This document shows, piece after piece, positions 47 to 63,657 of a stretch of DNA of 64,000 bases. Position 1 is the first letter of the stretch. Each line of letters opens with the position of its first letter. The notes under the pieces are model-generated. The model did no database searches. It was not told where the DNA came from and worked only from the letters and a program-made list of their open reading frames with translations. The translations under genes were made by a program, and so were the position numbers. The DNA is from Minisyncoccota bacterium (lineage in GTDB: Bacteria > Patescibacteriota > Minisyncoccia > Phycocordibacterales > UBA1550). The DNA is taken from NCBI GenBank assembly GCA_041660105.1, contig JBAZWZ010000001.1:523-64522 (forward strand), read 5' to 3'.

Positions 47-113
47 CTAGTGCAAAGCAAAAAAACCGCAGCGGTTGGCGTTACGTCCAAGATATGAATT
101 TGGTAATTTATGA

Positions 114-650
114 TTATTTGGGGTTACATTGCATCACACAATTTACTAAAGAATGGTTCCATTTTTCTTTGCTATGTACCTATTTGACCGATAGTATAAA
201 ATAGGTACATAGTGGAAGTTGGGCGAGTATATGGTTGCGGATTTTTGGGGTTACATTGCATCACACAATTTACCAAAGAATGGTGGCGGTCCCCTTTTCT
301 TGAGGAGTAAACAACATACACTTAATATATGCTATAGCATATATTAAGTGTATGTCGGGGAATTAAGAGTTGGACGTTGGATGAGTTTGGAGCTGGGGAT
401 TTTTAGGGTTACATTGCATCACACAATTTACGAAAGAATGGTGTCCCATTTTCACCTTCTGTTATCAATTTCCGCTATCTACTTATACGATACTATAGTA
501 CTGTATAAGTAGATAGTAGTATATATAACACTTTTAGGCGAATGAACGGCTGAAGATTTTTGGGGTTACATTGCATCACACAATTTACGAAAGAATGGTG
601 GCTGGCGCGGGGGCCTCTATTTTATACTCTTTATCAAAAAAGAATTGCTT
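114..650. repeat. Tandem array of 4 direct repeats, each followed by a unique palindrome-containing variable segment; not a canonical CRISPR
   Basis: Conserved core (ATTTTT)GGGGTTACATTGCATCACACAATTTAC[T/C/G]AAAGAATGGTG at 120-157, 247-284, 405-442, 562-599. Each core is followed by a degenerate gTCCcaTTTTCtt tail. Periods are 127, 158 and 157 bp. The variable segments each hold a different near-perfect palindrome: tgtacctattt..aaataggtaca, catacacttaatatatgctatagcatatattaagtgtatg, ctacttatacgatactatagtactgtataagtag. Confidence 0.8.
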
Positions 651-8093: not shown

Positions 8094-8825
8094 TTATATC
8101 CCCGAGAGTCCAAAGAGCCTACCGATGCCATACGTAATGACCATCGCGAGGATTCCACCTGCGACGACGCGGACGGTGGCGGTGCGCTTTGATGCGCCTC
8201 CTGCATGGGCGCTCAGACTGCCCGTGATAATAAGGGCAATAAGCACTGATATGAAGGTCGCCGTGACGCGCCAAGACTCAGGAGGAAGGGTGATGGCAAG
8301 AAGCGGAATAAGTGAGCCCGCAGTAAACGATGCTGCAGATGCGTACGCCGCGTGAAGTGGGTTGGTAAGGAAGTTGGGATTGATATGAAGCTCCACATCA
8401 ACGTGTGCTGCAAATGCGTCATGAGCGGTGAGCTCGATAGCAACGCGCTTTGCGGTATCCCGCGAGACGCCCTTACTCTCGTAAATACCAACTAATTCCT
8501 CGAGTTCGCTCTCGGGAACGGTATCAAGCTCGTGACGTTCCTTGGCGAGAAGTGCTTTCTCGGTATCGCGCTGAGTACTCACGGACACGTATTCCCCCAC
8601 TGCCATCGAGAGTGCCCCTGCGGTGAGTCCTGCGACTCCGGTAATAAGGATGACGTTTGAAGAGGCAGCAGCACCCGCAACCCCGAGAACAAGTGATGCG
8701 GTTGAAACGATGCCGTCGTTTGCGCCGAGGACGGCTGCGCGGAGTGCGTTGAGCTCGGTGTGTTTCTTTACTGATTGTTGGATAGGACTCATCCCCATAA
8801 GTATACCATCAAAAATACAAAACAA
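8094..8825 (-). CDS. VIT1/CCC1 family iron/manganese transporter
   Basis: 243 aa; SVKKHTELNALRAAVLGANDGIVSTASLVLGVAGA is typical of the VIT family, with multiple TM segments. Confidence 0.7.
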   Translation of the reverse strand: MFCIFDGILMGMSPIQQSVKKHTELNALRAAVLGANDGIVSTASLVLGVAGAAASSNVILITGVAGLTAGALSMAVGEYVSVSTQRDTEKALLAKERHELDTVPESELEELVGIYESKGVSRDTAKRVAIELTAHDAFAAHVDVELHINPNFLTNPLHAAYASAASFTAGSLIPLLAITLPPESWRVTATFISVLIALIITGSLSAHAGGASKRTATVRVVAGGILAMVITYGIGRLFGLSGI

Positions 8826-8874
8826 AGGGCGGTCCTTTTTTGCAAAAAAGGACCGCCCTTTGTTTTGTATTTTT
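8812..8874. terminator. 63-bp perfect palindrome / bidirectional terminator
   Basis: aaaatacaaaacaaagggcggtccttttttgcaaaaaaggaccgccctttgttttgtatttt. Confidence 0.6.
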
Positions 8875-9620
8875 TAACGAGGCATAGACAATGGAAAACT
8901 TTTTTGTGGAACCTTCTTTATCCCAAACACATTCACCACACCGCCTTTCATTTCCCCTGCCACAAAGACAGTGTCTCCTACAACAATCCCCGTGGAGGTA
9001 GCGTATGGCGCTTTGTCATCAAGGACCAGCGTGAGCGTCGTCGTACTCCTCGTGTCTCGCACAACGATAGCACCGTCAACAATTGATTTTACTTTGCACA
9101 AGCAAAGAGCACTTCCTGGTCCGATGGGGTGGCGCACCCCGCGGTAAATGTCAAAAGGCTGTGAATGTTGGCGTCCTGCGTCTGAGCGACGGAGCATTCT
9201 CTCGTTCATATCCGTACCTCGGTCAATAGCAAACCCAAGAAGCCCGATACTCGCGAGGAGCCCTAAGAGTAAATAAAGTACGGGGATCTTGTAACCAAAT
9301 CTGAAATGGCGAACCAATCGCTCAAGAATAAAAATTAACGCAATATCAAGAATAAGGAGCCCCCACGGGAAAAAGTGGAAGAAGGCTCCCCATCCCCGCG
9401 GACCAAAGGAAAGTAACATCTCGTGACTGTTGATACGAATGCTAAACAAAATAAAGTTAATTATAAAAACAGAAATGAGAAGCACCGCGAGCGAGAGAAC
9501 GGCGGTGGAAACTACTTTGATAGTGAAATATAATTTCGGGCGCATCGAAAGCTCCTTTGTATGTATCTTGTGAAGGATTGCGTCTTTTATACTGCTTTGT
9601 TTTGTTTCGTTATTATTCAT
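8874..9620 (-). CDS. Membrane-anchored anti-sigma factor-like protein
   Basis: 248 aa. Overlaps the upstream ECF sigma gene by 8 nt, so the two are translationally coupled. Cytoplasmic N-terminus, TM segments, extracytoplasmic C-terminal domain. Confidence 0.5.
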   Translation of the reverse strand: MNNNETKQSSIKDAILHKIHTKELSMRPKLYFTIKVVSTAVLSLAVLLISVFIINFILFSIRINSHEMLLSFGPRGWGAFFHFFPWGLLILDIALIFILERLVRHFRFGYKIPVLYLLLGLLASIGLLGFAIDRGTDMNERMLRRSDAGRQHSQPFDIYRGVRHPIGPGSALCLCKVKSIVDGAIVVRDTRSTTTLTLVLDDKAPYATSTGIVVGDTVFVAGEMKGGVVNVFGIKKVPQKSFPLSMPR

Positions 9621-25201: not shown

Positions 25202-25438
25202 ATGGACGAAGATGAAGATGATGTAGTAGTGGTGAGGGATAGTAACGGTACCATCTTGAGTAAGGGCGACACGGTGGTTGTCATTAAAGATTTGAAGGTT
25301 AAGGGTAGCTCCTCGGTAGTAAAAAGAGGAACCAAGGTTAAAAACATTTCACTTGAAGATGACGGCGAGCATGTATCAGGTAGTGGTGACGGTGTGAAAG
25401 GTATCGCACTCAAGGCTGAATTCTTGAAGAAAGCGTAA
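25202..25438 (+). CDS. PhnA/YjdC-like C-terminal domain protein
   Basis: 78 aa; DSNGTILSKGDTVVVIKDLKVKGSSSVVKRGTKVKNI..GVKGIALKAEFLKKA closely matches the PhnA C-terminal domain. Confidence 0.7.
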   Translation: MDEDEDDVVVVRDSNGTILSKGDTVVVIKDLKVKGSSSVVKRGTKVKNISLEDDGEHVSGSGDGVKGIALKAEFLKKA

Positions 25439-25443
25439 AAATA

Positions 25444-25497
25444 CAAAAGCCCCACCGAGCACCAGTAATGGTGCTCGGTGGGGCTTTTGTGTTTTTG
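25444..25497. terminator. Bidirectional rho-independent terminator (shared-core family)
   Basis: gccccaccgagcaccagtaatggtgctcggtggggc followed by ttttgtgttttt. The core CCGAGCACCAGTA[A/C]TGGTGCTCGG recurs at 35228-35257. Confidence 0.8.
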
Positions 25498-33900: not shown

Positions 33901-35215
33901 CCATAATAGCCCCCACGAGCCCTGCAGGCAAACCCTCTTCGTCAACAAACACTGCTTTACTGAAATGCACATCGTGCACGTTCTTGTCATAACCTTTAAC
34001 TTGAGAATCATATTCCTGCACACCACCACTCTTAAAAAGTTCATCGTCTTTTGCGTTATAAACAATCGCAAGCTCTGGCGGATTGATATCAAAAACCGTT
34101 TTCCCAATAAGTTTGTCTTTTGTAGCACCAAAGAAATTCTCGTATGCCTTATTGAAGCCGAGGTATCGCCCCACTCTATCTTTATAAAAGACAGGTACAG
34201 GGATAGCGTTGAGGAGCGTGGTGAGAAATGTATCATTCTCGCGTAATTTTTCCTCTGCCAGCTGGCGTCTGACAATATCTTGCTGGAGGGCAAACGACAT
34301 GTCTGAAAGTTTTTCATATGGCTCTTGAATCAAGACTATAAAAATCCCTTCATAAAGAAAGATGAATGCAGCAAACCTAAAAAGATGAGCGAGTACATTA
34401 AGCGTGTCGTATTGTGTAAACAAAAGGAACAGGAGAACATTGCTCATGAGAAGGAGAGTAAACGCAGCAAGATAGAGAAGATAAACTCTATTTTTTTCAT
34501 TTAGGTACATCCTCAGATACATAACATACGCAAGAATGAGCAATACTACAACAACCCCCTCAAGAACAAACGCGAGGGTTGTTGCACCCGTCCCATCAAT
34601 AAAGATAACGGGAAGTGAACTCTCAAAAAAAGTTACCCCGAGAATTACTGAGCTTGCGATAAGAAATGGGGCCGAAAATACAACTATTTTCCATAACCTG
34701 AACTTAGCGGGAATTCGTGAAATAAATGTACTAAGAAGGAAAGCAGCCAAAAAAAGAAGCTGTCCCATTATCCAAAATATAAGGGTTTTATTATTTGTAC
34801 TTGGCGTAATAAACATCGGCATTCCAGGGAACCCGAGGATATCCATCATATCAAGCATCCCGAAACCAATGAATGAGCTCGTTAAGAAAAAAAGATGTTC
34901 ATCACGGGAATGGAGATAGTGGAATACGCCAACCATAAAAATCGCGAATGAAATAACAATGGTAACAAGCTCAATGAAATCATGAAACAAGAGGTATGAA
35001 GCAGAACTAAAAACTATATAAAATTGTTCACTGAAAAACCATGCAATGAGTATGATCGCTAGGGGAACGAGCAAAGTTGCCACGAGAAACTGAACTGGTG
35101 AGGTAAGCTTCTTTGTTTCTTCTGGCGCTGTTTTGATTGGGGGCATATAGGTACTAAAAATAATATACCTATATTCTACTATTTTTATGAATATAATGAA
35201 ACAAGTAACGTGCAA
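30968..35215 (-). CDS. Multi-domain sensor histidine kinase (N-terminal polytopic membrane domain, multiple PAS/GAF, HisKA, HATPase_c)
   Basis: 1415 aa; H-box LASHQLRTPLS, N/G boxes (NAINYSP, GTGLGLYIAKMVAIKLGG), several PAS-like repeats. No response regulator adjacent. Confidence 0.85.
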   Translation of the reverse strand: MHVTCFIIFIKIVEYRYIIFSTYMPPIKTAPEETKKLTSPVQFLVATLLVPLAIILIAWFFSEQFYIVFSSASYLLFHDFIELVTIVISFAIFMVGVFHYLHSRDEHLFFLTSSFIGFGMLDMMDILGFPGMPMFITPSTNNKTLIFWIMGQLLFLAAFLLSTFISRIPAKFRLWKIVVFSAPFLIASSVILGVTFFESSLPVIFIDGTGATTLAFVLEGVVVVLLILAYVMYLRMYLNEKNRVYLLYLAAFTLLLMSNVLLFLLFTQYDTLNVLAHLFRFAAFIFLYEGIFIVLIQEPYEKLSDMSFALQQDIVRRQLAEEKLRENDTFLTTLLNAIPVPVFYKDRVGRYLGFNKAYENFFGATKDKLIGKTVFDINPPELAIVYNAKDDELFKSGGVQEYDSQVKGYDKNVHDVHFSKAVFVDEEGLPAGLVGAIMDITESKQTEKVCREAEENLRNIIEESPVATIVDTVEDGIERVLIMNKKFTELFGYTIEDIPDVEHWWAAAYPNEEDRQIARDKFAQGIAEATNGKTKSAPPETSVTCKDGTIRYVRVALSSLENRNVVTFEDLTDRIISEEEHKANTRFMESMDRVNKVIIKSDDLDKMMSDVLDEVLRIFDCDRAWLITPCDPWTLSYKVPMERTKPEYPGASSFGIEVPVDPDTTVLFQTTRAHDGPVVFNSQSNPPLPPELTTHFQVQSQLVMEIHPRVAASWMVGMHQCSYERVWTTEEKRLFQEVGRRIADALGILLAYHELQKSEEKYSRIIETANEGIWMLDQGRKFTFVNKRILDVLGYESKEMLLHDLLEFIDTSEHADEERQYEERRQGKSAIYERKFLHKNGGVVVCSISAVPVFSKEKEFMGSYGMVTDITERKRAEDELKEQQEHSQSLLRFSRDLEQARTYGDALQAAQKEIQDVMGYTNVWAYRLDEDKKYAHSIVATGSTAGMVMSEDVSATLKIEGDPMLEAIANAKEIVIVEDAQTDPNVNREIVEKMKNRTLVNVPVVLFDRNLGSIGMGTFGDEGVKVPSKSEQEYLVAMASHIAVAFDRIRLLEDRKKTEEELRENERELLEAQRIGHFGSFDWDSRTDVAVWSEEFYHIYGIDPSEKALPLAEYLQLYTPESSALMKRSVENIIKTGESYSLDLEFVRPDGVRKWVNIRGEAKYDEAHNFIGVQGTAQDVTRAKEVEKMRSDFLSLASHQLRTPLSGTKWLIETLEKKIPGPLTKKQKEYLDDIYKINERMTRLVSDMLAALRIESTETAFERNPIELPELYADLMLGVEAAAKSKQIVISEHFSKHPVPVVESNMNFLGIVLGTLFSNAINYSPECTEIIFDVVEEDNSVAFVVQDFGIGIPEDEQSRVFDRFFRAVNAKMMRPEGTGLGLYIAKMVAIKLGGSITFTSSKQGTTFMLHIPKSK

Positions 35216-35223
35216 AATTAAAC

Positions 35224-35263
35224 AAAAGAGCCGAGCACCAGTACTGGTGCTCGGCTCTTTTAC
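35224..35263. terminator. Bidirectional terminator (shared-core family)
   Basis: gagccgagcaccagtactggtgctcggctc flanked by aaaa and ttttac. Confidence 0.75.
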
Positions 35264-35281
35264 TTAATTTCGCACCACCCC

Positions 35282-37445: not shown

Positions 37446-38027
37446 TTACTTAACCGTTTTTAAAAGTTCTGTAAATTCTTTCTGTACCTTCTCAAGCTTC
37501 GGATTGATAATCATTTTGCAATATCCATTATTCACATTGTGTGCGTAATAATCTTTGTGACATTCCTCCGCAGGATAAAACGTTGAGAAATGCTCGACCG
37601 CAGTCACCACCGCTTCGCTATTGGTGGCTCCGTTATCAAGATCCTTAATAAATTTTGATGCTTCGTATTCTTGTTCAGGAGTTGTATAAAAAATTACTGA
37701 ACGATATTGTGTCCCAATGTCATTGCCTTGTCTGTTGAGTGTTGTGGGATCGTGTGAAGCAAAGAAAATAGTGAGGAGCGTATGAAAAGAAACGAGCGCA
37801 GGGTCAAACTCGATACGAACAACCTCAGCGTGCCCCGTTTCTCCCAATGAAACTTGCTCATACGTTGGATTTTCCGTTTTTCCTCCTGCGTATCCTGGTG
37901 TGACCGAAATCACCCCACGAAACATCTTAAACACCGCCTCAACACACCAAAAACACCCACCACCAAATACTACCACTTCCGTCTTTTGAGTTTCCATATT
38001 ATTACTAATAGTATACCCCCACCCCAA
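37446..38027 (-). CDS. msrA: Peptide-methionine (S)-S-oxide reductase
   Basis: GGGCFWCVE active-site motif. Confidence 0.9.
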   Translation of the reverse strand: MGWGYTISNNMETQKTEVVVFGGGCFWCVEAVFKMFRGVISVTPGYAGGKTENPTYEQVSLGETGHAEVVRIEFDPALVSFHTLLTIFFASHDPTTLNRQGNDIGTQYRSVIFYTTPEQEYEASKFIKDLDNGATNSEAVVTAVEHFSTFYPAEECHKDYYAHNVNNGYCKMIINPKLEKVQKEFTELLKTVK

Positions 38028-38190
38028 CTTTTAATACAGTACTTCACTACCACTACTATTATCGTCCACAATACCCCACTTCTCTCCTTTCTCCTCTCTT
38101 TTCTATTTCCTGAATAAATAGTTTTGAGATTTGTTTTTTCTTTTGAGCTTTCTTTTCCCTCTGTCCTTCTTTTTACTCTTTCTATCCTTA

Positions 38191-38230
38191 GAATTTCCAA
38201 TCGTGCCCTATAGTACCAAATTGGAAATTC
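38191..38230. repeat. Palindromic site, copy A (downstream of the PaaX-like gene)
   Basis: gaatttccaatcgtgccctatagtaccaaattggaaattc shares a 22-bp identical segment ctatagtaccaaattggaaatt with copy B at 38937-38974. Confidence 0.7.
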
Positions 38231-38308
38231 TGAAGGTAGAGAAAAAAGAAAATTAGAGTCTCAAATCAACCACTCCGTCGGCTTGCCACAGGGTGGTTGA
38301 TTTGAGAT

Positions 38309-38863
38309 TTAGATTTTGAAATGCTTTTTAATACTACCTACGTCCTCTACTTCCTTCGCGGTTATGATGCGAATATACTTGCGTACATCAAAACACTCAC
38401 CCGCAAAATCAATAACATCTGCACAAGGAAATGGGGTGATGAACACTGACTTCTGGTACTGGAGACACCCAAGTTTTTGAATAGCGTGTCCAATAGCGCG
38501 TCGCGCAAACTTCTTATCCTCAGGAATATCAAACATAACAATTCTCCACAAGCCATCCCACTTTTTTTGACGCATGATAGTCATCGACTTTAGCTTACTG
38601 CGCATTGCGCGCTCTTTGCCTGCTGCTGTTAAGACATAGTACTCTACTCCCTGCATCTTTCTTTTCCCTAAGTAGCCACGCTTCTCGAGTCGATCAGCCG
38701 ATCTCCGAATCCTCCACTGTTCTTGTGATGACTTTGGTCCAAAATATTTAAAGAGCTGAACTGCATTTGGCATCGTGACAGCGACCGCAAGCACCCCCAC
38801 CACCAAAAGTGTTGAAAGTAATATCTCAACAACATCTTCCTTTGTTGTATCTTTGAGTGCCAT
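38309..38863 (-). CDS. PaaX-family-like winged-helix regulator with N-terminal TM anchor and Cas2-like C-terminal domain
   Basis: 184 aa. N-terminal TM (VVEILLSTLLVVGVLAVAV), wHTH-like LEKRGYLGKRKMQGVEYYVLTAAG, then WDGLWRIVMFDIPEDKKFARRAIGHAIQKLGCLQYQKSVFITP, which matches the PaaX C-terminal (Cas2-like) signature. Confidence 0.5.
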   Translation of the reverse strand: MALKDTTKEDVVEILLSTLLVVGVLAVAVTMPNAVQLFKYFGPKSSQEQWRIRRSADRLEKRGYLGKRKMQGVEYYVLTAAGKERAMRSKLKSMTIMRQKKWDGLWRIVMFDIPEDKKFARRAIGHAIQKLGCLQYQKSVFITPFPCADVIDFAGECFDVRKYIRIITAKEVEDVGSIKKHFKI

Positions 38864-38892
38864 AGTTAATAGTTATAAATAGTTGCATTATA

Positions 38893-38974
38893 TGCATCTG
38901 TTACATTACTTGCATCTGTTACATTAAGAATAGCATAATTTCCAATTTGGTACTATAGTACCAAATTGGAAATT
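38893..38974. promoter_or_regulatory. Upstream region of the PaaX-like gene: direct repeat TGCATCTGTTACATTA x2 plus a 38-bp perfect palindrome (copy B)
   Basis: tgcatctgttacatta at 38893-38908 and 38914-38929. aatttccaatttggtactatagtaccaaattggaaatt at 38937-38974. Confidence 0.6.
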
Positions 38975-39086
38975 ATGGAAATAAGGGAACAAGAAAGGAG
39001 AACAGAGTGGTGTGGTGGGCGGGGAAATACCCTTGCGCATTTTTTACAATAAAGAAAACTCTGCACAAGCAGAGTTTTCCTTTGTC

Positions 39087-39332
39087 TTATTCGTTTTGTT
39101 TTTCTCGCCAGTCTTCATTCACGGTTGCCTCCGTGACACATCCGATGTTTGGATTATTCTTTGGATGAAACCCCATCTCTGCTTCAAACATCTTATCCGC
39201 TTCATCGATGGTCAGCGCCTTGCACTTGAAAACAGGTTCCCTGTCCCCCACCTCGTTGTGGTCAATGTAAATAAACTCGATAGGCTTCTCAGGAGTTGCA
39301 ATATTTTCAATTGCCTTAAAAAATTCTTCCAT
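39087..39332 (-). CDS. Hypothetical acidic small protein (81 aa)
   Basis: ORF, co-oriented, 5-nt gap to the upstream SPFH gene. Confidence 0.4.
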   Translation of the reverse strand: MEEFFKAIENIATPEKPIEFIYIDHNEVGDREPVFKCKALTIDEADKMFEAEMGFHPKNNPNIGCVTEATVNEDWREKQNE

Positions 39333-51427: not shown

Positions 51428-51491
51428 CGACCGCGCAAATACAGAAAAACCTAACGAAAATTCATTAGGTTTTTCTGTATTTGCGCGGTCG
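51428..51491. repeat. Conserved-end long hairpin 1 (cgaccgcgcaaataca ... tgtatttgcgcggtcg)
   Basis: About 27-bp stem. The terminal 16 bp of each arm are identical to hairpin 2 at 51721-51780, while the interiors differ with compensatory changes. Confidence 0.75.
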
Positions 51492-51727
51492 ATGGTCCGC
51501 GGTCACGAGTTACTAAGTGTGCTCAGGTGAGTACACCCTGCGCGCACTAAGTACTCTCGACCCCGCCTCACTGTCGCCTTGCGACATGCTCCCGATTTCT
51601 TACACGGTACTCCGAGTGTTGAAATCGCAGTGCCCTAGATTTATCGTGGCTTACGGCTTTCGAGTCTCCTCGCGGTTCGATTTTCTAATCGCCAGCGCAA
51701 GTGAAGCAGTTCACTTGCTTCGACCGC
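51484..51727 (-). pseudogene. tRNA-Asp-derived element: tRNA-Asp-like 5' and 3' ends flanking a ~170-nt non-tRNA insert
   Basis: Minus strand begins GCGGTCGaAGC (10 of 11 match to the tRNA-Asp 5' end) and ends GGACCATCGACCGC G CAAATACA (tRNA-Asp 3' end plus trailer). The interior has no D or anticodon arms. Confidence 0.5.
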
Positions 51728-51780
51728 GCAAATACAAAAAATCACGGCAATTGCCGTGATTTTTTGTATTTGCGCGGTCG
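51721..51780. terminator. Conserved-end hairpin 2 / terminator immediately 3' of tRNA-Asp
   Basis: On the minus strand the tRNA-Asp acceptor 3' strand runs into UCACGGCAA UUGCCGUGA followed by UUUUUUG. The distal arm regenerates GCGGUCG. Confidence 0.75.
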
Positions 51781-51846
51781 ATGGGACTCGAACCCACGAC
51801 CCCTCACGTGACAGGCGAGTGCTCTAACCAGCTGAGCTACGACCGC
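51773..51846 (-). tRNA. tRNA-Asp (anticodon GTC)
   Basis: GCGGTCG TA GCTC AGCTGGTTA GAGC A CTCGC CTGTCAC GTGAG GGGTC GTGGG TTCGAGT CCCAT CGACCGC G. Confidence 0.9.
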
Positions 51847-51949
51847 AAATTGTACTTCTTCTGCAACCTGACCCTTCTCATTTAGTCCGATATGCACTCG
51901 CCGAGGCGAACGCTCGCTATCTTCTTAATCTGAGCTGAGCTACGACCGC
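51847..51949 (-). pseudogene. Degenerate tRNA-Asp-derived repeat unit A (103 nt)
   Basis: Starts with 17 nt identical to the tRNA-Asp 5' end (GCGGTCGTAGCTCAGCT), contains GAGCGTTCGCCT (D/anticodon stem remnant) and a mini-hairpin replacing the anticodon loop; no T-arm. Confidence 0.7.
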
Positions 51950-52052
51950 AAATTTTACTCTTTCTGCAACCAAACCTAACTCATTTAATCCGATATGCAC
52001 TCGCCTAGGCGAGTGCTCGCTATTTTCTTAATCTGAGCTGAGCTACGACCGC
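51950..52052 (-). pseudogene. Degenerate tRNA-Asp-derived repeat unit B (103 nt)
   Basis: About 90% identical to unit A; GCGGTCGTAGCTCAGCTCAGATTAAGAAAATAGCGAGCACTCGCCTAGGCGAGTGC... Confidence 0.7.
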
Positions 52053-52105
52053 AAATTTACTACTTTTGCATTCTAGCAGGAAACGTTCCGCGAAACAAAT
52101 GCGGG

Positions 52106-58893: not shown

Positions 58894-59474
58894 TTAAAAA
58901 TATTCTCGGAAAAAGCGACGGTTCCCGTGTCTCCTCCTGTTCTCCATGTGACAGTCGAAGTAACATTCTTTTCAATCCCCGCCACAACATCTGCTATCGT
59001 CACTGTCCTCGTAAACTGAGTCGTGGTTGCGGTTACGGTCCCTTGCTCATATAGTCCTGTACCGCTGTCAATATACACGTTTGAATCAGTGAGTAATACA
59101 ACTGGCGGGTCGTTTTTTAGATTGACCATATAATTTCCAGCGGTGATATTTGTGTCCCATGCTCCCACTGCTAGCATGTTGCTATCTCTCACTTGCCGCA
59201 CGGCTTCAATCCCCTCTTGAGCAAGATTGATTGCGATCATTTGGTCTTTTGAATAATAAAGTTTATGAGTTGCATCTCCAATAAGTGAGATGGGCCCAAC
59301 AACCGCAACGAGTAATATTGAGATTGCGATAAGGGTTTCAATGAGGGTGAATGCGCGAGTACGCGCACAACTGACCACTGACAACTTACAACTTACGGCA
59401 GATTTTCGCATAGCGAAAATCTGCTTATTGGGTATCAGTTGTTCTTTATTAGTTGTTAGTTGTGTATTCAGCAT
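58881..59474 (-). CDS. Type IV minor pilin-like protein (A|FTLIE prepilin motif)
   Basis: RTRAFTLIETLIAISILLVAVVG. The true start is probably an in-frame GTG shortly before the motif. The upstream ORF extension covers a conserved hairpin and repeat leader. Confidence 0.6.
   Translation of the reverse strand: MLNTQLTTNKEQLIPNKQIFAMRKSAVSCKLSVVSCARTRAFTLIETLIAISILLVAVVGPISLIGDATHKLYYSKDQMIAINLAQEGIEAVRQVRDSNMLAVGAWDTNITAGNYMVNLKNDPPVVLLTDSNVYIDSGTGLYEQGTVTATTTQFTRTVTIADVVAGIEKNVTSTVTWRTGGDTGTVAFSENIFNWQI
59398..59424 (-). promoter_or_regulatory. Conserved leader hairpin upstream of minor pilin 1
   Basis: gcagattttcgcatagcgaaaatctgc, paralogous to 60721-60745, flanked by CAACTGAC / CAACTAAC repeats. 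Confidence 0.5.
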
Positions 59475-59515
59475 TTTGTCAGTTGTTAGTGGTCAGTGGT
59501 CAGTTGTTCCTATCC

Positions 59516-60119: not shown

Positions 60120-60845
60120 TTACTGGATCGAGATTTGTCCCGCTTTTGTTATCTTCACTACAGCAGTCCTTCCAGAAATGGAATCAGATATGGTAATAGA
60201 GACAAAACTGAAAGAGATAATTGGGTTCTCGACACTTTCGGCAATAAACGCGTCTGGATTGGGACGTCTAAAAGTAACATTTGCTATATTGTAACTACAG
60301 GGAGTTCCCCCGCACGAAAGCTCTGTAATAGCGATATTGTTTGTCCAATTCACGCTGACATTTTGAAGATTGGCGTCAATCCCATTGTCATACACACGGT
60401 TGCTATTAAGATCAGCAAATACAACAACGCCATTTGCTCCCTGAGAAAAGTGTACTCCATAGGAGCAATCAAATGTTGTCACGCCTCCTGCGCATACCGT
60501 TCCACTCCCCTTTGCCCCTGCTCCATACACTTGCGCCTGACGAAGCGCGAGGACAATATTTTCAGACGCATTGGCAAAAAGTGCATTTGAATCGTAATTG
60601 CGATAATTTGAAAGCACAACTCCTGTCAATAACATAAAGACACCGATGACGATAAGAATTTCGACGAGGGTGAATGCGCGATTACGCACACAACTGACAT
60701 TTGACAACTGACAACTGACCGCAGATTTTCGCGTCGCGAAAATCTGCTTGTAATATGTCCGCATAGCGGCCTGCCCCGTAGGAAGTAGGCTCTTTTTAGC
60801 CGTAAGTTCCAGCGGGGTGTCAGTTGTCAGTTGTTCTTTAATCAT
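60120..60845 (-). CDS. Type IV minor pilin-like protein (A|FTLVE)
   Basis: RNRAFTLVEILIVIGVFMLL. A GTG four codons upstream of the motif would give a 5-aa MRNRA leader. Confidence 0.6.
   Translation of the reverse strand: MIKEQLTTDTPLELTAKKSLLPTGQAAMRTYYKQIFATRKSAVSCQLSNVSCVRNRAFTLVEILIVIGVFMLLTGVVLSNYRNYDSNALFANASENIVLALRQAQVYGAGAKGSGTVCAGGVTTFDCSYGVHFSQGANGVVVFADLNSNRVYDNGIDANLQNVSVNWTNNIAITELSCGGTPCSYNIANVTFRRPNPDAFIAESVENPIISFSFVSITISDSISGRTAVVKITKAGQISIQ
60721..60745 (-). promoter_or_regulatory. Conserved leader hairpin upstream of minor pilin 2
   Basis: gcagattttcgcgtcgcgaaaatctgc with flanking caactgacaactgac repeats. Confidence 0.5.
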
Positions 60846-62228: not shown

Positions 62229-62410
62229 AAATATTTTGATGTGCTAACGGTTATTGAATAGTAACCTAATTGTACAAGAGAACAATATAAATGTAAACGG
62301 AAAACCTAAGTTATGCACACATACACAATAACACCCAGCCTATCCGTAGACAGGCTGGGTGTTATGTATGAGCGATTAACTCAAGAGAAAAGTGAATCTC
62401 TTAGACGAGA

Positions 62411-62941
62411 TTAAGGACAAACGTACTGGTTAGTTCCAGATCCTGTAAGTCCAGTAGTTGACGCTGACTTACCCGTACTGTCAACACACCAGAATGAAGC
62501 TCCGTTTACGGTCTTCAAAGGAACAGCTGCAGCCCACTGGGTAGCCTCGGCATGGCAAGTTGCAACAGTTGCTGATGATGCAGTTGTAGTTGCAGAATCA
62601 TATGTTGCTCCTGCTGCTGTAGCGGCTCCTGTTACCATAGAACTAATACCACCAGCAGCTGTACAAACACCAGTGTAAGTCTGGTTACCTTGAGTAGCAT
62701 TATCATAGAAAAGCTCTGCTTGTGCGCGAGCGTTTGCGAGACCTGACTTGATAGCTGCATCAGCACCCTTTGAACGTGCAGAGTTAAGTGATGCCAAAAC
62801 TACAGACGCGAGGATACCGATGATTGCGATAACAACCAAGAGTTCGATAAGTGTAAAACCTTTTGATTTCATATTTTTTATAAAACTAATAACCTTTAAC
62901 CTAATAAATACTTTTTGTATAAGAGAGAGCGGCATGGCCAT
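62411..62941 (-). CDS. Type IV major pilin paralog 1 (probable true start at the internal MKSKGFTLIE, about 62872)
   Basis: N-terminal 110 aa identical to paralog 2. The upstream 23 codons of the long ORF lie in the shared 5' UTR. Confidence 0.8.
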   Translation of the reverse strand: MAMPLSLIQKVFIRLKVISFIKNMKSKGFTLIELLVVIAIIGILASVVLASLNSARSKGADAAIKSGLANARAQAELFYDNATQGNQTYTGVCTAAGGISSMVTGAATAAGATYDSATTTASSATVATCHAEATQWAAAVPLKTVNGASFWCVDSTGKSASTTGLTGSGTNQYVCP

Positions 62942-62968
62942 CGGCCGCCCTCTCTACCATACCCAGAT

Positions 62969-62998: not shown

Positions 62999-63099
62999 CT
63001 CCAAAAGGCTGTCAGTAAAACACCCAGTCTGTCCGTGGACAGGCTGGGTGTTTTGTATGAGTGATTAACTCAAGAGAGAAGTGATTCTCCTACGCGAGA

Positions 63100-63630
63100 C
63101 TAGTTACAAACTGAGTCATTAGAACCACCAAGAACAACTGCTGTCTGCTCTGACTTACCAGAACTATCGACGCACCAGAATAATGTTGTTGATGCCTTCA
63201 TTGGTACTGATGCTGCCCAGGCATCACCAGTTGCTGACTCGTGACAAATTGCCTCGCCGGCCGCCTGAAGAGTTGTTGTTGAGGTATCGAAGGTTGCCCC
63301 AGAAGCAGAGACGGCTCCTGCAACCATTGTTGAAATACCACCAGTCTCTGTACAAACACCAGTGTAAGTCTGGTTACCTTGAGTAGCATTATCATAGAAA
63401 AGCTCTGCTTGTGCGCGAGCGTTTGCGAGACCTGACTTGATAGCTGCATCAGCACCCTTTGAACGTGCAGAGTTAAGTGATGCCAAAACTACAGACGCGA
63501 GGATACCGATGATTGCGATAACAACCAAGAGTTCGATAAGTGTAAAACCTTTTGATTTCATATTTTTTATAAAACTAATAACCTTTAACCTAATAAATAC
63601 TTTTTGTATAAGAGAGAGCGGCATGGCCAT
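63100..63630 (-). CDS. Type IV major pilin paralog 2 (probable true start at 63561, MKSKGFTLIE)
   Basis: Tandem duplicate at a 689-bp period; C-terminal 60 aa diverge from paralog 1. Confidence 0.8.
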   Translation of the reverse strand: MAMPLSLIQKVFIRLKVISFIKNMKSKGFTLIELLVVIAIIGILASVVLASLNSARSKGADAAIKSGLANARAQAELFYDNATQGNQTYTGVCTETGGISTMVAGAVSASGATFDTSTTTLQAAGEAICHESATGDAWAASVPMKASTTLFWCVDSSGKSEQTAVVLGGSNDSVCN

Positions 63631-63657
63631 CGGCCGCCCTCTCTACCATACCTGCAT

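What the first reader, a model, noticed from the sequence alone, without database searches (positions are those of the whole stretch)
38185..38985. PaaX-like (Cas2-like C-terminal domain) membrane-anchored regulator bracketed by direct copies of a 38-bp palindrome
The 184-aa protein combines an N-terminal TM helix, a winged-helix-like segment, and a C-terminal WDGLWRIVMFDIPE...LQYQKSVFI block matching the PaaX C-terminal domain, which has a Cas2-like fold. The gene is flanked on both sides by copies of a palindrome sharing 22 identical bp (ctatagtaccaaattggaaatt), one 80 bp downstream and one 70 bp upstream. The upstream side also carries a direct repeat TGCATCTGTTACATTA x2. A gene bracketed by repeated palindromic sites may be an autoregulated unit or a small cassette-like mobile unit. 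The GTTACATT and TACTATAGTA words also occur in the 114-650 array core and in its unit-3 palindrome. That overlap is weak and possibly coincidental.
Basis: partly seen in the sequence, partly recalled or inferred. Interest (0 to 1): 0.55.

Follow-up and report, generated by a model that had tools for sequence, protein, structure and literature searches.

The report
Small regulator gene flanked by palindromes
A small, apparently membrane-anchored DNA-binding protein gene in an ultra-small (CPR/Patescibacteria) bacterium sits between two copies of its own ~40-bp palindromic site, and dozens of relatives share this layout, each with a private palindrome; this points to an undescribed self-regulating module, not a terminator motif or an actively jumping cassette.

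Summary
Window 38309-38863 (-) encodes a 184-aa protein with a hydrophobic N-terminal helix, a partial winged helix and a Cas2-like PaaX_M domain. A perfect 44-bp palindrome (38934-38977) lies 70 bp upstream. A 38-bp copy with one altered inner arm (38192-38229) lies 80 bp downstream. Nothing similar occurs elsewhere in the 64 kb.

The layout is family-wide. Of 82 non-redundant homologous loci from Patescibacteria, 66 have dyad-symmetric sites on both sides of the gene. The centre is conserved (CTATAG; CGATCG or CGGCCG in distant clades). The arms are paralog-specific, and there are up to six paralogs per genome. The ~40-bp dyad matches the E. coli PaaX box (TGATTC-N27-GAATCA).

One paralog class has a third site in front of dUTPase-thymidylate kinase or SHMT genes. 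Mismatches show no G·U strand bias, so an RNA hairpin is unlikely.

Best reading: a mini-PaaX autorepressor with paired operators, upstream at the promoter/RBS and downstream as an auxiliary site for looping or insulation. The role of the downstream site and each site's "private" perfect symmetry remain unexplained.

The cassette reading is weak. Paralogs within a genome are divergent, and there is no recombinase and no target-site duplication. The "weak" link to the 114-650 array is real: its spacers are orphan palindromes of the same class.

The parts
38309..38863 (-). paaXL gene: 184-aa protein with N-terminal hydrophobic (TM-like) helix, partial winged helix (about residues 34-93) and Cas2-like PaaX_M domain (about residues 100-181). 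NCBI locus tag WC791_00205.
38934..38977 (.). Upstream site: perfect 44-bp palindrome (core 38937-38974), centre CTA|TAG, 70 bp from the ATG. A sigma-70-like match (TTTCCA-18-TATAGT, minus strand, 38981-38952) places a -10-like hexamer on the dyad centre.
38192..38229 (.). Downstream site: 38-bp copy of the palindrome with one inner arm changed (CGTGCC). Weaker dyad symmetry extends to 38170-38251. It lies 80 bp past the stop, beyond the terminator hairpin, and about 195 bp upstream of the msrA ATG (37997).
38240..38317 (-). Probable intrinsic terminator of the gene, read from the sequence: stem TCTCAAATCAACCAC / GTGGTTGATTTGAGA (38260-38274 / 38294-38308) followed on the minus strand by a T-rich tract. 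It separates the coding region from the downstream site.
38864..38933 (-). 70-bp leader between the palindrome and the ATG. It contains the 18-bp x2.5 tandem repeat (38882-38926), a perfect TATAAT on the minus strand (38892-38887) and a 5-codon mini-ORF that starts at the ATG ending the palindrome. Most relatives lack this segment; their palindrome ends 2-11 nt before the ATG. It resembles the 46-bp repeat of the 114-650 array.
113..602 (+). Related array: a 46-bp direct repeat x4 (about 113, 240, 398, 555) separated by spacers that hold orphan palindromes of the same class (172-212, 312-357, 475-516). Their arms resemble those flanking other paaXL paralog classes in other genomes.

Best explanation
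The gene encodes a truncated, membrane-anchored member of the PaaX repressor lineage. It has a TM helix, a recognition helix plus wing, and a Cas2-like dimerisation domain, but no C-terminal effector domain. It most likely binds as a dimer to a ~40-bp dyad-symmetric DNA site.

The site has a centre shared by the whole family (C-T/G-A/G | Y-A/C-G, mostly CTATAG). Its outer arms (positions ~10-18 from the dyad) are private to each paralog.

The upstream site overlaps the promoter and ribosome-binding region, so occupancy would shut off the gene's own transcription (autorepression, as for E. coli PaaX at Px).

The second site just downstream of the transcription unit would serve as an auxiliary operator. 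Two bound dimers could bridge the ~0.7-kb unit into a loop, or the bound protein could block transcription running out of or into the gene. Either way the unit would be insulated from its neighbours.

Shown: the protein homology, the existence, geometry and family-wide conservation of paired sites, their paralog specificity, and DNA-level (not RNA-level) symmetry. Inferred: binding itself, repression, looping or insulation, membrane insertion, and the signal.
For: Protein:
- PaaX_M E=1.9e-16.
- Foldseek top hits are E. coli PaaX 8a39 and Rv0674 3kfw, then many Cas2 and VapD.
- The family profile aligns residues 50-108 to the PaaX wing/recognition region.

Sites in this window:
- Only two in 64 kb, both flanking the gene.

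Family-wide:
- In 59 of 80 loci, upstream-vs-downstream flank similarity exceeds the 99th percentile of a cross-locus null.
- 66 of 82 non-redundant loci have dyads of at least 14/22 on both sides, against 14% of control windows.
- Zero-loop palindromes with arms of at least 12 nt: 48 upstream, 44 downstream, 0 inside genes and 23 elsewhere in 532 kb. Of the 92 flanking ones, 70 are centred on CTATAG.

Bipartite profile:
- Symmetry is high at positions 1-5, dips at 6-9, peaks at 10-18 and is gone by ~22. This is the span of the E. coli PaaX box TGATTC-N27-GAATCA, and PaaX represses its own promoter (PMC9493321).
- Hybrid half-centres (CGA|TAG, CGG|TCG) occur, as expected for two independent half-sites.

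Specificity and position:
- Arms differ between paralogs of one genome, e.g. six in JBBTUT01.
- The upstream centre is most often 22-31 bp from the ATG, so the arm covers the SD/start.
- One class has a third site directly upstream of SHMT (L031) or dUTPase-thymidylate kinase (L032), next to DHFR or dCMP deaminase.

DNA level, not RNA:
- Mismatches give G·U 42 vs A·C 39 (upstream) and 40 vs 37 (downstream), and half are transversion-type.
- In the window the downstream site lies beyond a terminator.
Against: - No binding or expression data exist.
- The Pfam PaaX N-terminal wHTH model does not hit, and TIGR02277 scores 30.6 against a cut-off of 264.55. The wHTH region is modelled at only pLDDT 62-82 and residues 1-42 below 50.
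- Classical autoregulation does not need a downstream site. The downstream neighbour is convergent in 36 loci and co-directional in 40, so that site's role is a guess.
- Each site keeps a private perfect symmetry that the other site does not share: four-arm patterns AABB 111 vs ABAB 34 vs ABBA 38, strongest at positions 16-21. Protein recognition alone does not predict this. It needs an extra process, such as quasipalindrome template-switch 'perfecting' (established mutational mechanism, my knowledge) or selection for cruciform extrusion.
- Within 64 kb the protein's only visible targets are its own flanks, so its output is unclear.
- There is no effector domain.
- The conserved CTATAG centre could be a -10 element rather than a protein contact, although CGATCG and CGGCCG centres argue against that as a general reading.
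Confidence: 0.55

Rival explanations
1. The palindromes are recombination sites, and the palindrome-gene-palindrome unit is a cassette. Crossover between the two flanking copies would excise a circle that carries one palindrome and leave a solo palindrome. Re-integration would occur at solo palindromes such as those in the 114-650 array.
For: - Proteins 79-85% identical to the query sit in at least four unrelated contexts besides the window's own: MacB ABC transporter, ATP synthase, PGK/TIM, and the window's SPFH...msrA.
- A relative that keeps SPFH-p81...msrA-msrB-YgaP synteny (msrA 74% identical) has three other genes and no palindrome at that position.
- The same MAG carries a 91%-identical second copy on another contig.
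- A few loci have reciprocal hybrid sites X|Y' ... Y|X' (L001, L030, L083, L065), as expected from a crossover at the dyad centre.
- L010 has a 45-bp direct repeat that includes the ATG.
- Orphan palindromes are clustered in an array with near-identical 46-bp repeats.
Against: - No recombinase or transposase lies in or next to the units, and there is no target-site duplication.
- In the GTDB genomes that hold four to six paralogs, these are 35-85% identical to the query and carry different arms, so there are no multi-copy near-identical elements.
- One paralog class keeps its argS neighbourhood across genomes.
- No relatives were found on viral contigs.
- Overall, reciprocal (638 mismatches) and direct (650) relations between the two sites are no better than each other, and both are worse than within-site symmetry (325).
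- The different contexts may reflect sub-paralogs, since the window genome has two class-I copies.
- The array's conserved repeat lies on the gene side of the palindrome in the gene locus, so simple excision would not leave it behind.
Confidence: 0.15
2. The palindromes act as RNA hairpins in the 5' and 3' untranslated regions. They would work as terminator, attenuator or stability elements, or as an RNA target of the Cas2-like (RRM-like fold) protein.
For: - Both sites can form stems of 19-22 bp or more.
- The terminator scan flags the upstream palindrome on the minus strand.
- Within-site compensatory symmetry is strong.
- Some Cas2 and VapD proteins are RNases (my knowledge; fold hits).
Against: - G·U-type mismatches show no sense-strand excess (42 vs 39; 40 vs 37), and half of all mismatches are transversion-type.
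- The exact two-fold symmetry runs through the centre, with zero loop, unlike the genome's other hairpins, many of which have 3-8 nt loops.
- No T-run follows the downstream sites.
- In the window a separate terminator precedes the downstream site.
- Symmetry dips at positions 6-9, next to the would-be loop.
Confidence: 0.05
3. The sites are structural DNA elements, such as cruciform-prone palindromes or membrane-tethering and boundary sites. The membrane-anchored protein would bind or process them for a purpose other than transcription control, for example tethering loci to the membrane, or cleavage by the Cas2-like domain.
For: - The TM-like anchor is conserved in all 21 aligned homologues.
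- Private perfect symmetry extends beyond the shared core, up to 36-nt arms.
- The centre is AT-rich in most classes.
- The Asp of the FDIPE motif (D112) is invariant and sits where Cas2 has its metal-binding Asp (position from my knowledge of Cas2).
- The downstream site has no promoter to control in about half of loci.
Against: - There is no evidence of cleavage, and PaaX_M in PaaX is regarded as a dimerisation module (PMC9493321).
- CGGCCG and CGATCG centres are not AT-rich.
- The upstream site's tight coupling to the start codon, and the third sites in front of dTMP-synthesis genes, fit gene control better.
Confidence: 0.1

Closest known systems
E. coli / Pseudomonas PaaX (GntR-type repressor of phenylacetate catabolism) and its operator TGATTC-N27-GAATCA
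   Same: Both have a recognition helix plus wing followed by the Cas2-like PaaX_M domain, and PaaX is the top structural hit. Both use a ~39-40-bp dyad with specificity in the outer arms. PaaX represses its own promoter (PMC9493321).
   Different: This protein is 184 aa against ~316 aa. It lacks the C-terminal helical effector domain and the first helices of the wHTH, and has an N-terminal TM-like helix instead. It has a conserved dyad centre, sites on both sides of the gene, many paralogs per genome, no paa genes nearby, and is confined to Patescibacteria.
Cas2 (CRISPR adaptation protein) and VapD
   Same: Ferredoxin-like fold. Sequence motifs (V/I)MFD(I/V)PE ... QKSVF resemble Cas2 YDI ... 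Q.SVF. Cas2 HMM scores are close to threshold.
   Different: The score is below the Cas2 cut-off. There is no cas1 and no CRISPR array next to the gene. It is fused to a DNA-binding segment and a TM helix.
Repressor genes bracketed by operators that cooperate by looping (lambda cI between OL and OR; lac O1/O2, gal OE/OI auxiliary operators) - my knowledge
   Same: The repressor gene or transcription unit lies between two copies of the repressor's site, 0.4-2.4 kb apart.
   Different: Here a single dyad sits on each side. The downstream one often lies between convergent genes with no outward promoter. Looping is untested.
Membrane-bound one-component transcription factors (ToxR, CadC) - my knowledge
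   Same: A DNA-binding domain is tethered to the membrane by a single helix.
   Different: Those have a cytoplasmic N-terminal DNA-binding domain and a periplasmic sensor. Here the helix is N-terminal, with about 10 residues outside and no sensor domain.
Integron gene cassettes (attC) and REP/RAYT units - my knowledge
   Same: A single gene is associated with imperfect palindromes, and there is an array of palindromic sites with conserved flanks.
   Different: No integrase or RAYT, no GTTRRRY core sites, palindromes on both sides with identical arms, and no genome-wide dispersal.

Membership tests
PaaX family repressor (TIGR02277 / Pfam PaaX + PaaX_M + PaaX_C) | PaaX_M central Cas2-like domain | tested here: met
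   PF20803, 60.4 bits against cut-off 24, residues 100-172. All 120 listed homologues carry PF20803.
PaaX family repressor (TIGR02277 / Pfam PaaX + PaaX_M + PaaX_C) | Full-length equivalog score, including the N-terminal wHTH (PF07848) | tested here: not met
   TIGR02277 scores 30.6 bits against cut-off 264.55 and matches only residues 51-153. No PF07848 hit at E<=1.
PaaX family repressor (TIGR02277 / Pfam PaaX + PaaX_M + PaaX_C) | C-terminal helical effector (phenylacetyl-CoA) domain PaaX_C | tested here: not met
   The protein ends at residue 184, right after the Cas2-like domain, and there is no PaaX_C hit.
PaaX family repressor (TIGR02277 / Pfam PaaX + PaaX_M + PaaX_C) | Long dyad operator (~39 bp, outer 6-bp inverted repeats) at its own promoter | tested here: met
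   A ~40-bp dyad with the most symmetric positions at 10-18, lying 2-70 bp upstream of the ATG across the family. Compared with TGATTC-N27-GAATCA. Binding itself was not tested.
PaaX family repressor (TIGR02277 / Pfam PaaX + PaaX_M + PaaX_C) | Control of paa (phenylacetate) genes | tested here: not met
   Neighbours are SPFH, an 81-aa protein, msrA and msrB, and in relatives MacB, ATP synthase, PGK/TIM and dTMP-synthesis genes. No paa genes.
Cas2 | Cas2 HMM at or above the curated cut-off | tested here: not met
   TIGR01573 scores 22.7 against 24.5; PF09827 scores 16.7 against 23.8. Only residues 106-143 match.
Cas2 | Ferredoxin-like Cas2 fold | tested here: met
   Foldseek hits to many Cas2 chains, probability 0.9-0.99, TM (target-normalised) 0.42-0.63 over 64-92 columns.
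Cas2 | Adjacent cas1 / CRISPR array | tested here: not met
   Neighbouring genes in the window and in 10 annotated relatives include no Cas1. No CRISPR-type tandem array is near the gene.
Transposable element / gene cassette (IS, MITE, integron cassette) | Own or adjacent transposase/integrase | tested here: not met
   It is a single-gene unit. Neighbours are housekeeping genes. Conserved residues include no HUH motif or catalytic Tyr across the wider family.
Transposable element / gene cassette (IS, MITE, integron cassette) | Several near-identical copies per genome | tested here: inconclusive
   In GTDB genomes with four to six paralogs, these are 35-85% identical to the query and have different arms. 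However, the window's MAG has one 91%-identical second copy, whose flanks could not be fetched.
Transposable element / gene cassette (IS, MITE, integron cassette) | Target-site duplication, or empty sites in close relatives | tested here: inconclusive
   No direct repeat lies outside the palindromes. A syntenic relative lacks the unit, but it is distant (msrA 74%) and has other genes there.
Intrinsic terminator / REP-like genome-wide palindrome | GC-rich stem plus T-run, or many dispersed copies | tested here: not met
   Only 2 copies in 64 kb. The genome's terminators are different A-run/GC-stem/T-run palindromes. No T-run follows the downstream site, and a separate terminator precedes it.

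The most novel reading that the evidence does not exclude
The palindrome-gene-palindrome units are self-contained modules. Their wHTH-Cas2-like protein would act on its own flanking palindromes as DNA structures, binding or processing extruded hairpins or catalysing exchange at the conserved CTATAG centre. Units could then be excised, duplicated or inserted at solo palindromes. On this reading the 114-650 array (near-identical 46-bp repeats separating orphan palindromes of three other paralog classes) is a landing pad or record of such events: an integron- or CRISPR-like array built around a Cas2-fold DNA-binding protein.
Probability: 0.08. Interest if true: 0.9.

Novelty: new variant of a known kind. 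Interest (0 to 1): 0.6.

Why it matters
Almost nothing is known about transcription control in CPR/Patescibacteria, which cannot be grown alone.

This finding gives a large family of small regulators: 2,483 representatives of 50%-identity clusters at E<=1e-10, a count that probably also takes in more distant PaaX_M-domain proteins. For each, a protein-to-site assignment can be read directly from the genome, because every paralog carries its own ~40-bp palindrome on both sides of its gene.

Regulons become computable in complete genomes. One example already visible is a paralog class tied to dTMP-synthesis genes.

The family also offers a natural set of orthogonal repressor/operator pairs. It poses two concrete puzzles: why the operator is repeated downstream of the gene, and why each site stays perfectly symmetric.

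It also shows a PaaX/Cas2-fold protein working without an effector domain and probably from the membrane.

Tried and rejected
- **Genome-wide terminator or REP motif: rejected.** There are only two copies in 64 kb. The window's terminators are a different kind of palindrome.
- **RNA family: rejected.** Rfam finds nothing but tRNAs at gathering score, and only spurious miRNA-hairpin matches in the array at E<=1.
- **Sense-strand RNA hairpin: disfavoured.** There is no G·U bias.
- **Downstream site as operator of the next gene: rejected as a general rule.** The neighbour is convergent in 36 of 76 loci.
- **Integration or TIR signature across the family: not seen.** Reciprocal and direct arm relations are equal, and both are worse than within-site symmetry. 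Only 4-9 loci look reciprocal.
- **Phage or defence origin: no support.** No relatives on IMG/VR contigs, no PHROG hit, and PADLOC hits only Cas2 models weakly.
- **Empty-site test: inconclusive.** The closest msrA relative is only 74% identical. It lacks the unit but has three other genes there.
- **Flanks of the two other paralogs in the same MAG (WC791_02065, WC791_02495): could not be fetched**.
- **Scan for the array repeat in metagenomes:** returned only the same organism.
- **The array repeat as RNA:** it has no RNA structure signal, and relatives' loci contain no copy.
- **Short contigs from other assemblies:** three (L089-L091) begin at or within the downstream palindrome, and a fourth (L088) ends about 30 bp short of it. 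This is best explained by the repeat itself and was not used as evidence.
- **Literature:** no paper links PaaX-like proteins, CPR and palindromes.
Full report
**1. What is in the window**

The minus strand carries a 184-aa ORF at 38309-38863. A perfect 44-bp palindrome lies at 38934-38977, 70 bp upstream of the ATG: CATAATTTCCAATTTGGTACTA|TAGTACCAAATTGGAAATTATG.

A second copy lies at 38192-38229, 80 bp past the stop. It is identical except for six inner bases of one arm (CGTGCC instead of TTGGTA). The shared 22-mer occurs nowhere else in the 64 kb even with three mismatches; 0 are expected.

Several features lie between these sites and the gene:
- Between the stop codon and the downstream copy there is a separate hairpin, TCTCAAATCAACCAC...GTGGTTGATTTGAGA. 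On the coding strand a T-rich tract follows it. I read this as the gene's intrinsic terminator.
- Between the upstream palindrome and the ATG lies a 70-bp leader. It holds an 18-bp x2.5 tandem repeat and a perfect TATAAT.

The window's many other long palindromes are A-run/GC-stem/T-run bidirectional terminators. They are a different kind of object.

**2. The protein**

- Pfam gives PaaX_M, the "central Cas2-like domain" of PaaX (E=1.9e-16, residues 100-172).
- Cas2 models score just under threshold. TIGR02277 (PaaX) matches only residues 51-153 and falls far below its cut-off.
- The AlphaFold model (pLDDT 74) shows a helix at 8-30 with low confidence. It then shows a short helix, a long helix and a beta-hairpin wing (34-78), and a confident ferredoxin-like domain (106-181).
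- The best structural matches are E. coli PaaX (8a39) and Rv0674 (3kfw), followed by many Cas2 chains and VapD.
- The PaaX C-terminal effector domain and the first part of its wHTH are missing.
- A 19-residue segment with Kyte-Doolittle mean 2.0-2.9 is present in all 21 aligned homologues. It is followed by a basic stretch. This fits an N-out single-pass anchor, which is an inference.

The gene is WC791_00205 of a Candidatus Paceibacterota MAG. That MAG also encodes a 91%-identical copy (WC791_02065) and a 55% paralog (WC791_02495) on other contigs.

**3. The layout is a property of the whole family**

Homologues are all from Patescibacteria (CPR). A profile search finds 2,483 representatives of 50%-identity clusters at E<=1e-10, almost all 175-235 aa. 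That count probably also takes in more distant PaaX_M-domain proteins.

I fetched 80 loci from GTDB species genomes plus 7 from other assemblies. Single genomes hold up to six paralogs. The evidence for paired sites:
- In 59 of 80 loci, the 250 bp upstream and downstream of the gene resemble each other more than the 99th percentile of cross-locus pairs.
- 66 of 82 non-redundant loci have a dyad of at least 14/22 on both sides, against 14% of control windows.
- Zero-loop palindromes with arms of at least 12 nt number 48 upstream, 44 downstream, none inside the genes, and 23 in the remaining ~0.5 Mb.
- 70 of the 92 flanking palindromes are centred on CTATAG, and most of the rest on CGATCG or CGGCCG.
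- The arms are specific to each paralog class and differ among the paralogs of one genome.

**4. What kind of element the sites are**

Position by position, dyad symmetry is high at 1-5 from the centre. It dips at 6-9, is highest at 10-18 and vanishes by ~22. The site is therefore bipartite and ~40 bp long: a family-wide centre plus private outer arms.

This is the span of the E. coli PaaX box, TGATTC-N27-GAATCA. PaaX is known to repress its own promoter by occluding RNA polymerase (PMC9493321).

Hybrid half-centres (CGA|TAG, CGG|TCG, CGA|CCG) exist, as expected if each monomer reads its own half-site.

An RNA-hairpin function is unlikely, for three reasons:
- Transition-type mismatches that would be G·U in the sense transcript are no commoner than their A·C mirror images (42 vs 39 upstream; 40 vs 37 downstream), and half of all mismatches are transversion-type.
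- The symmetry runs exactly through the centre.
- The window's downstream site lies behind a terminator.

The upstream centre is most often 22-31 bp from the ATG. The proximal arm therefore covers the Shine-Dalgarno and start region (e.g. TTGGAGAATTcattATG). In CTATAG classes the centre reads as a -10-like TATAGT.

The window is atypical in having the extra 70-bp leader. The ATG that ends its palindrome now opens a 5-codon mini-ORF.

**5. Evidence that these are regulators with targets**

In one paralog class a third site of the same type lies in front of other genes.
- In L031 the order is DHFR | site | SHMT | site | paaXL.
- In L032 it is dCMP deaminase | site | dUTPase - thymidylate kinase | site | paaXL | site | argS.

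All five enzymes were confirmed by Pfam, and all belong to dTMP synthesis. L059, L043 and L045 also carry additional sites 1.5-2.5 kb away.

**6. What remains unexplained**

(a) The downstream site. The next gene is co-directional in 40 loci and convergent in 36. The site therefore does not generally control a neighbouring promoter. I propose an auxiliary operator: looping, as for lac O2, gal OI or lambda OL-OR (my knowledge), or a roadblock that insulates the unit. This is inference only.

(b) Private symmetry. I compared the four arms column by column. Both arms of one site differ from both arms of the other in 111 cases. The two control patterns occur in 34 and 38 cases (p~6e-14), and the effect is concentrated at positions 16-21.
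- In the closest GTDB orthologue, L009, the upstream arms are ATCTCCAATTTGG and the downstream arms TTTCCAATCTGG. The downstream palindrome is perfect over its 38 bp, and the upstream one has a single mismatch at its outermost position.
- Protein recognition does not predict this. Template-switch "perfecting" of quasipalindromes is a known mutational process (my knowledge) and could produce it without selection. Selection for cruciform extrusion is the alternative.
- The centre was chosen by maximising symmetry, which biases this test somewhat but not threefold.

**7. Mobility**

For:
- Proteins 79-85% identical to the query sit in unrelated contexts.
- A relative with conserved SPFH-p81...msrA-msrB-YgaP synteny has three other genes and no palindrome at this position.
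- There is a 91% second copy in the same MAG.
- A few loci have reciprocal hybrid sites (L001, L030, L083, L065).

Against:
- No recombinase, no target-site duplication and no viral relatives.
- In the GTDB genomes that hold four to six paralogs, these are 35-85% identical to the query and have different arms.
- One class keeps its argS neighbourhood.
- Family-wide, the reciprocal relation is no better than the direct one.
- Because the window genome has two class-I copies, "orthologues in different contexts" may be out-paralogs.

I rate the cassette reading at about 0.15.

**8. The 114-650 array**

A 46-bp sequence (GATTTTTGGGGTTACATTGCATCACACAATTTACNAAAGAATGGTG) occurs four times. Between the copies lie three long palindromes:
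- 172-212, with centre CCGATAGT.
- 312-357, perfect, with centre GCTATAGC.
- 475-516, with centre TACTATAGTA.

Their arms resemble those flanking other paralog classes in other genomes. For example, 475-516 resembles L012, L013, L016 and L024, and 172-212 resembles L041 and L042.

The 46-bp repeat aligns with the gene's own leader (GTTACATT...GCATC...AAGAATRG) in the same orientation relative to the palindrome. The array sits between two convergent gene ends. The repeat shows no RNA-structure signal. It is absent from the other loci. In metagenomes it is found only in the same organism. I could not fetch the other paralogs of this MAG to test whether their sites match. The array is real, related and unexplained.

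**9. Verdict**

The protein works most like a PaaX-type autorepressor, but it fails the membership tests for PaaX proper: no effector domain, incomplete wHTH, and far below the equivalog score. It also fails those for Cas2.

It is a new variant of a known kind: a CPR-specific family of TM-anchored mini-PaaX proteins with paired, paralog-private ~40-bp operators. No description was found in the searchable literature.

Noticed in passing
window 113-602: An array of a near-identical 46-bp direct repeat x4, separated by three orphan CTATAG-type palindromes (172-212, 312-357, 475-516). These belong to the same class as the sites flanking paaXL genes, with arms resembling other paralog classes. The array lies between convergent gene ends. 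The repeat resembles the paaXL leader. It has no RNA structure and no Rfam hit, and was found only in the same species (L095).
   Followed up: partly
window 38309-38863 vs NCBI MFA5997253.1 (WC791_02065) and MFA5997339.1 (WC791_02495): The same MAG encodes a 91%-identical second copy and a 55% paralog on other contigs (103 kb and 85 kb). Their flanks could not be fetched, so it is unknown whether the 91% copy shares the same palindrome (possible cross-talk or a recent unit duplication).
   Followed up: partly
L031 1559-1616 and L032 1575-1624: One paralog class has a third palindrome directly upstream of SHMT (next to DHFR) or of dUTPase-thymidylate kinase (next to dCMP deaminase). This suggests a regulon of dTMP-synthesis genes.
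   Followed up: partly
L092 2550-5001 vs window 37997-39087: A relative keeps SPFH - 81-aa protein ... msrA - msrB - YgaP synteny. Between them it carries an NMN-transporter-like gene, an AAA_28 gene and a cytochrome-b-type gene instead of the paaXL unit, with no palindrome. This intergenic position is variable.
   Followed up: yes
L088 end; L089-L091 starts (= window ~38220-38260): Three short contigs of this organism from different assemblies (L089-L091) begin at or within the downstream palindrome, and a fourth (L088) ends about 30 bp short of it, in the terminator hairpin. The repeat itself probably causes these breaks, but strain heterogeneity was not excluded.
   Followed up: partly
window 38934-38919 (minus strand): The ATG that forms the end of the upstream palindrome opens a 5-codon mini-ORF (MLFLM*). 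In several relatives the equivalent ATG is the real start codon. The window's 70-bp leader therefore looks like an insertion between the site and the gene.
   Followed up: partly
window 51428-51491, 51718-51783, 51830-52070: In the tRNA cluster there are two ~65-bp palindromes that share outer arms (CGACCGCGCAAATACA...) but differ in their inner parts. There is also a 103-bp x2.3 tandem repeat that overlaps a tRNA gene.
   Followed up: no
window 62328-62365 / 63017-63054 and 62922-62955 / 63611-63644: Pairs of near-identical hairpin-forming sequences lie 689 bp apart, which indicates a ~0.7-kb tandem duplication near the window end. Short 7-bp repeat runs (ACAACTG, GTCAGTG) lie at 59367-59504 and 60690-60719.
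   Followed up: no
L043 550-591 and 718-1599: An extra palindrome of the L043 paralog's class lies 2.4 kb upstream of the gene, next to an ORF that I read as an rve/DDE-type transposase from its sequence (no domain search was run).
   Followed up: no
window 8809-8876, 25437-25496, 35215-35270: Very long (56-68 bp) near-perfect A-run/GC-stem/T-run palindromes lie between genes. They are probably bidirectional terminators, and they are distinct from the CTATAG class.
   Followed up: no
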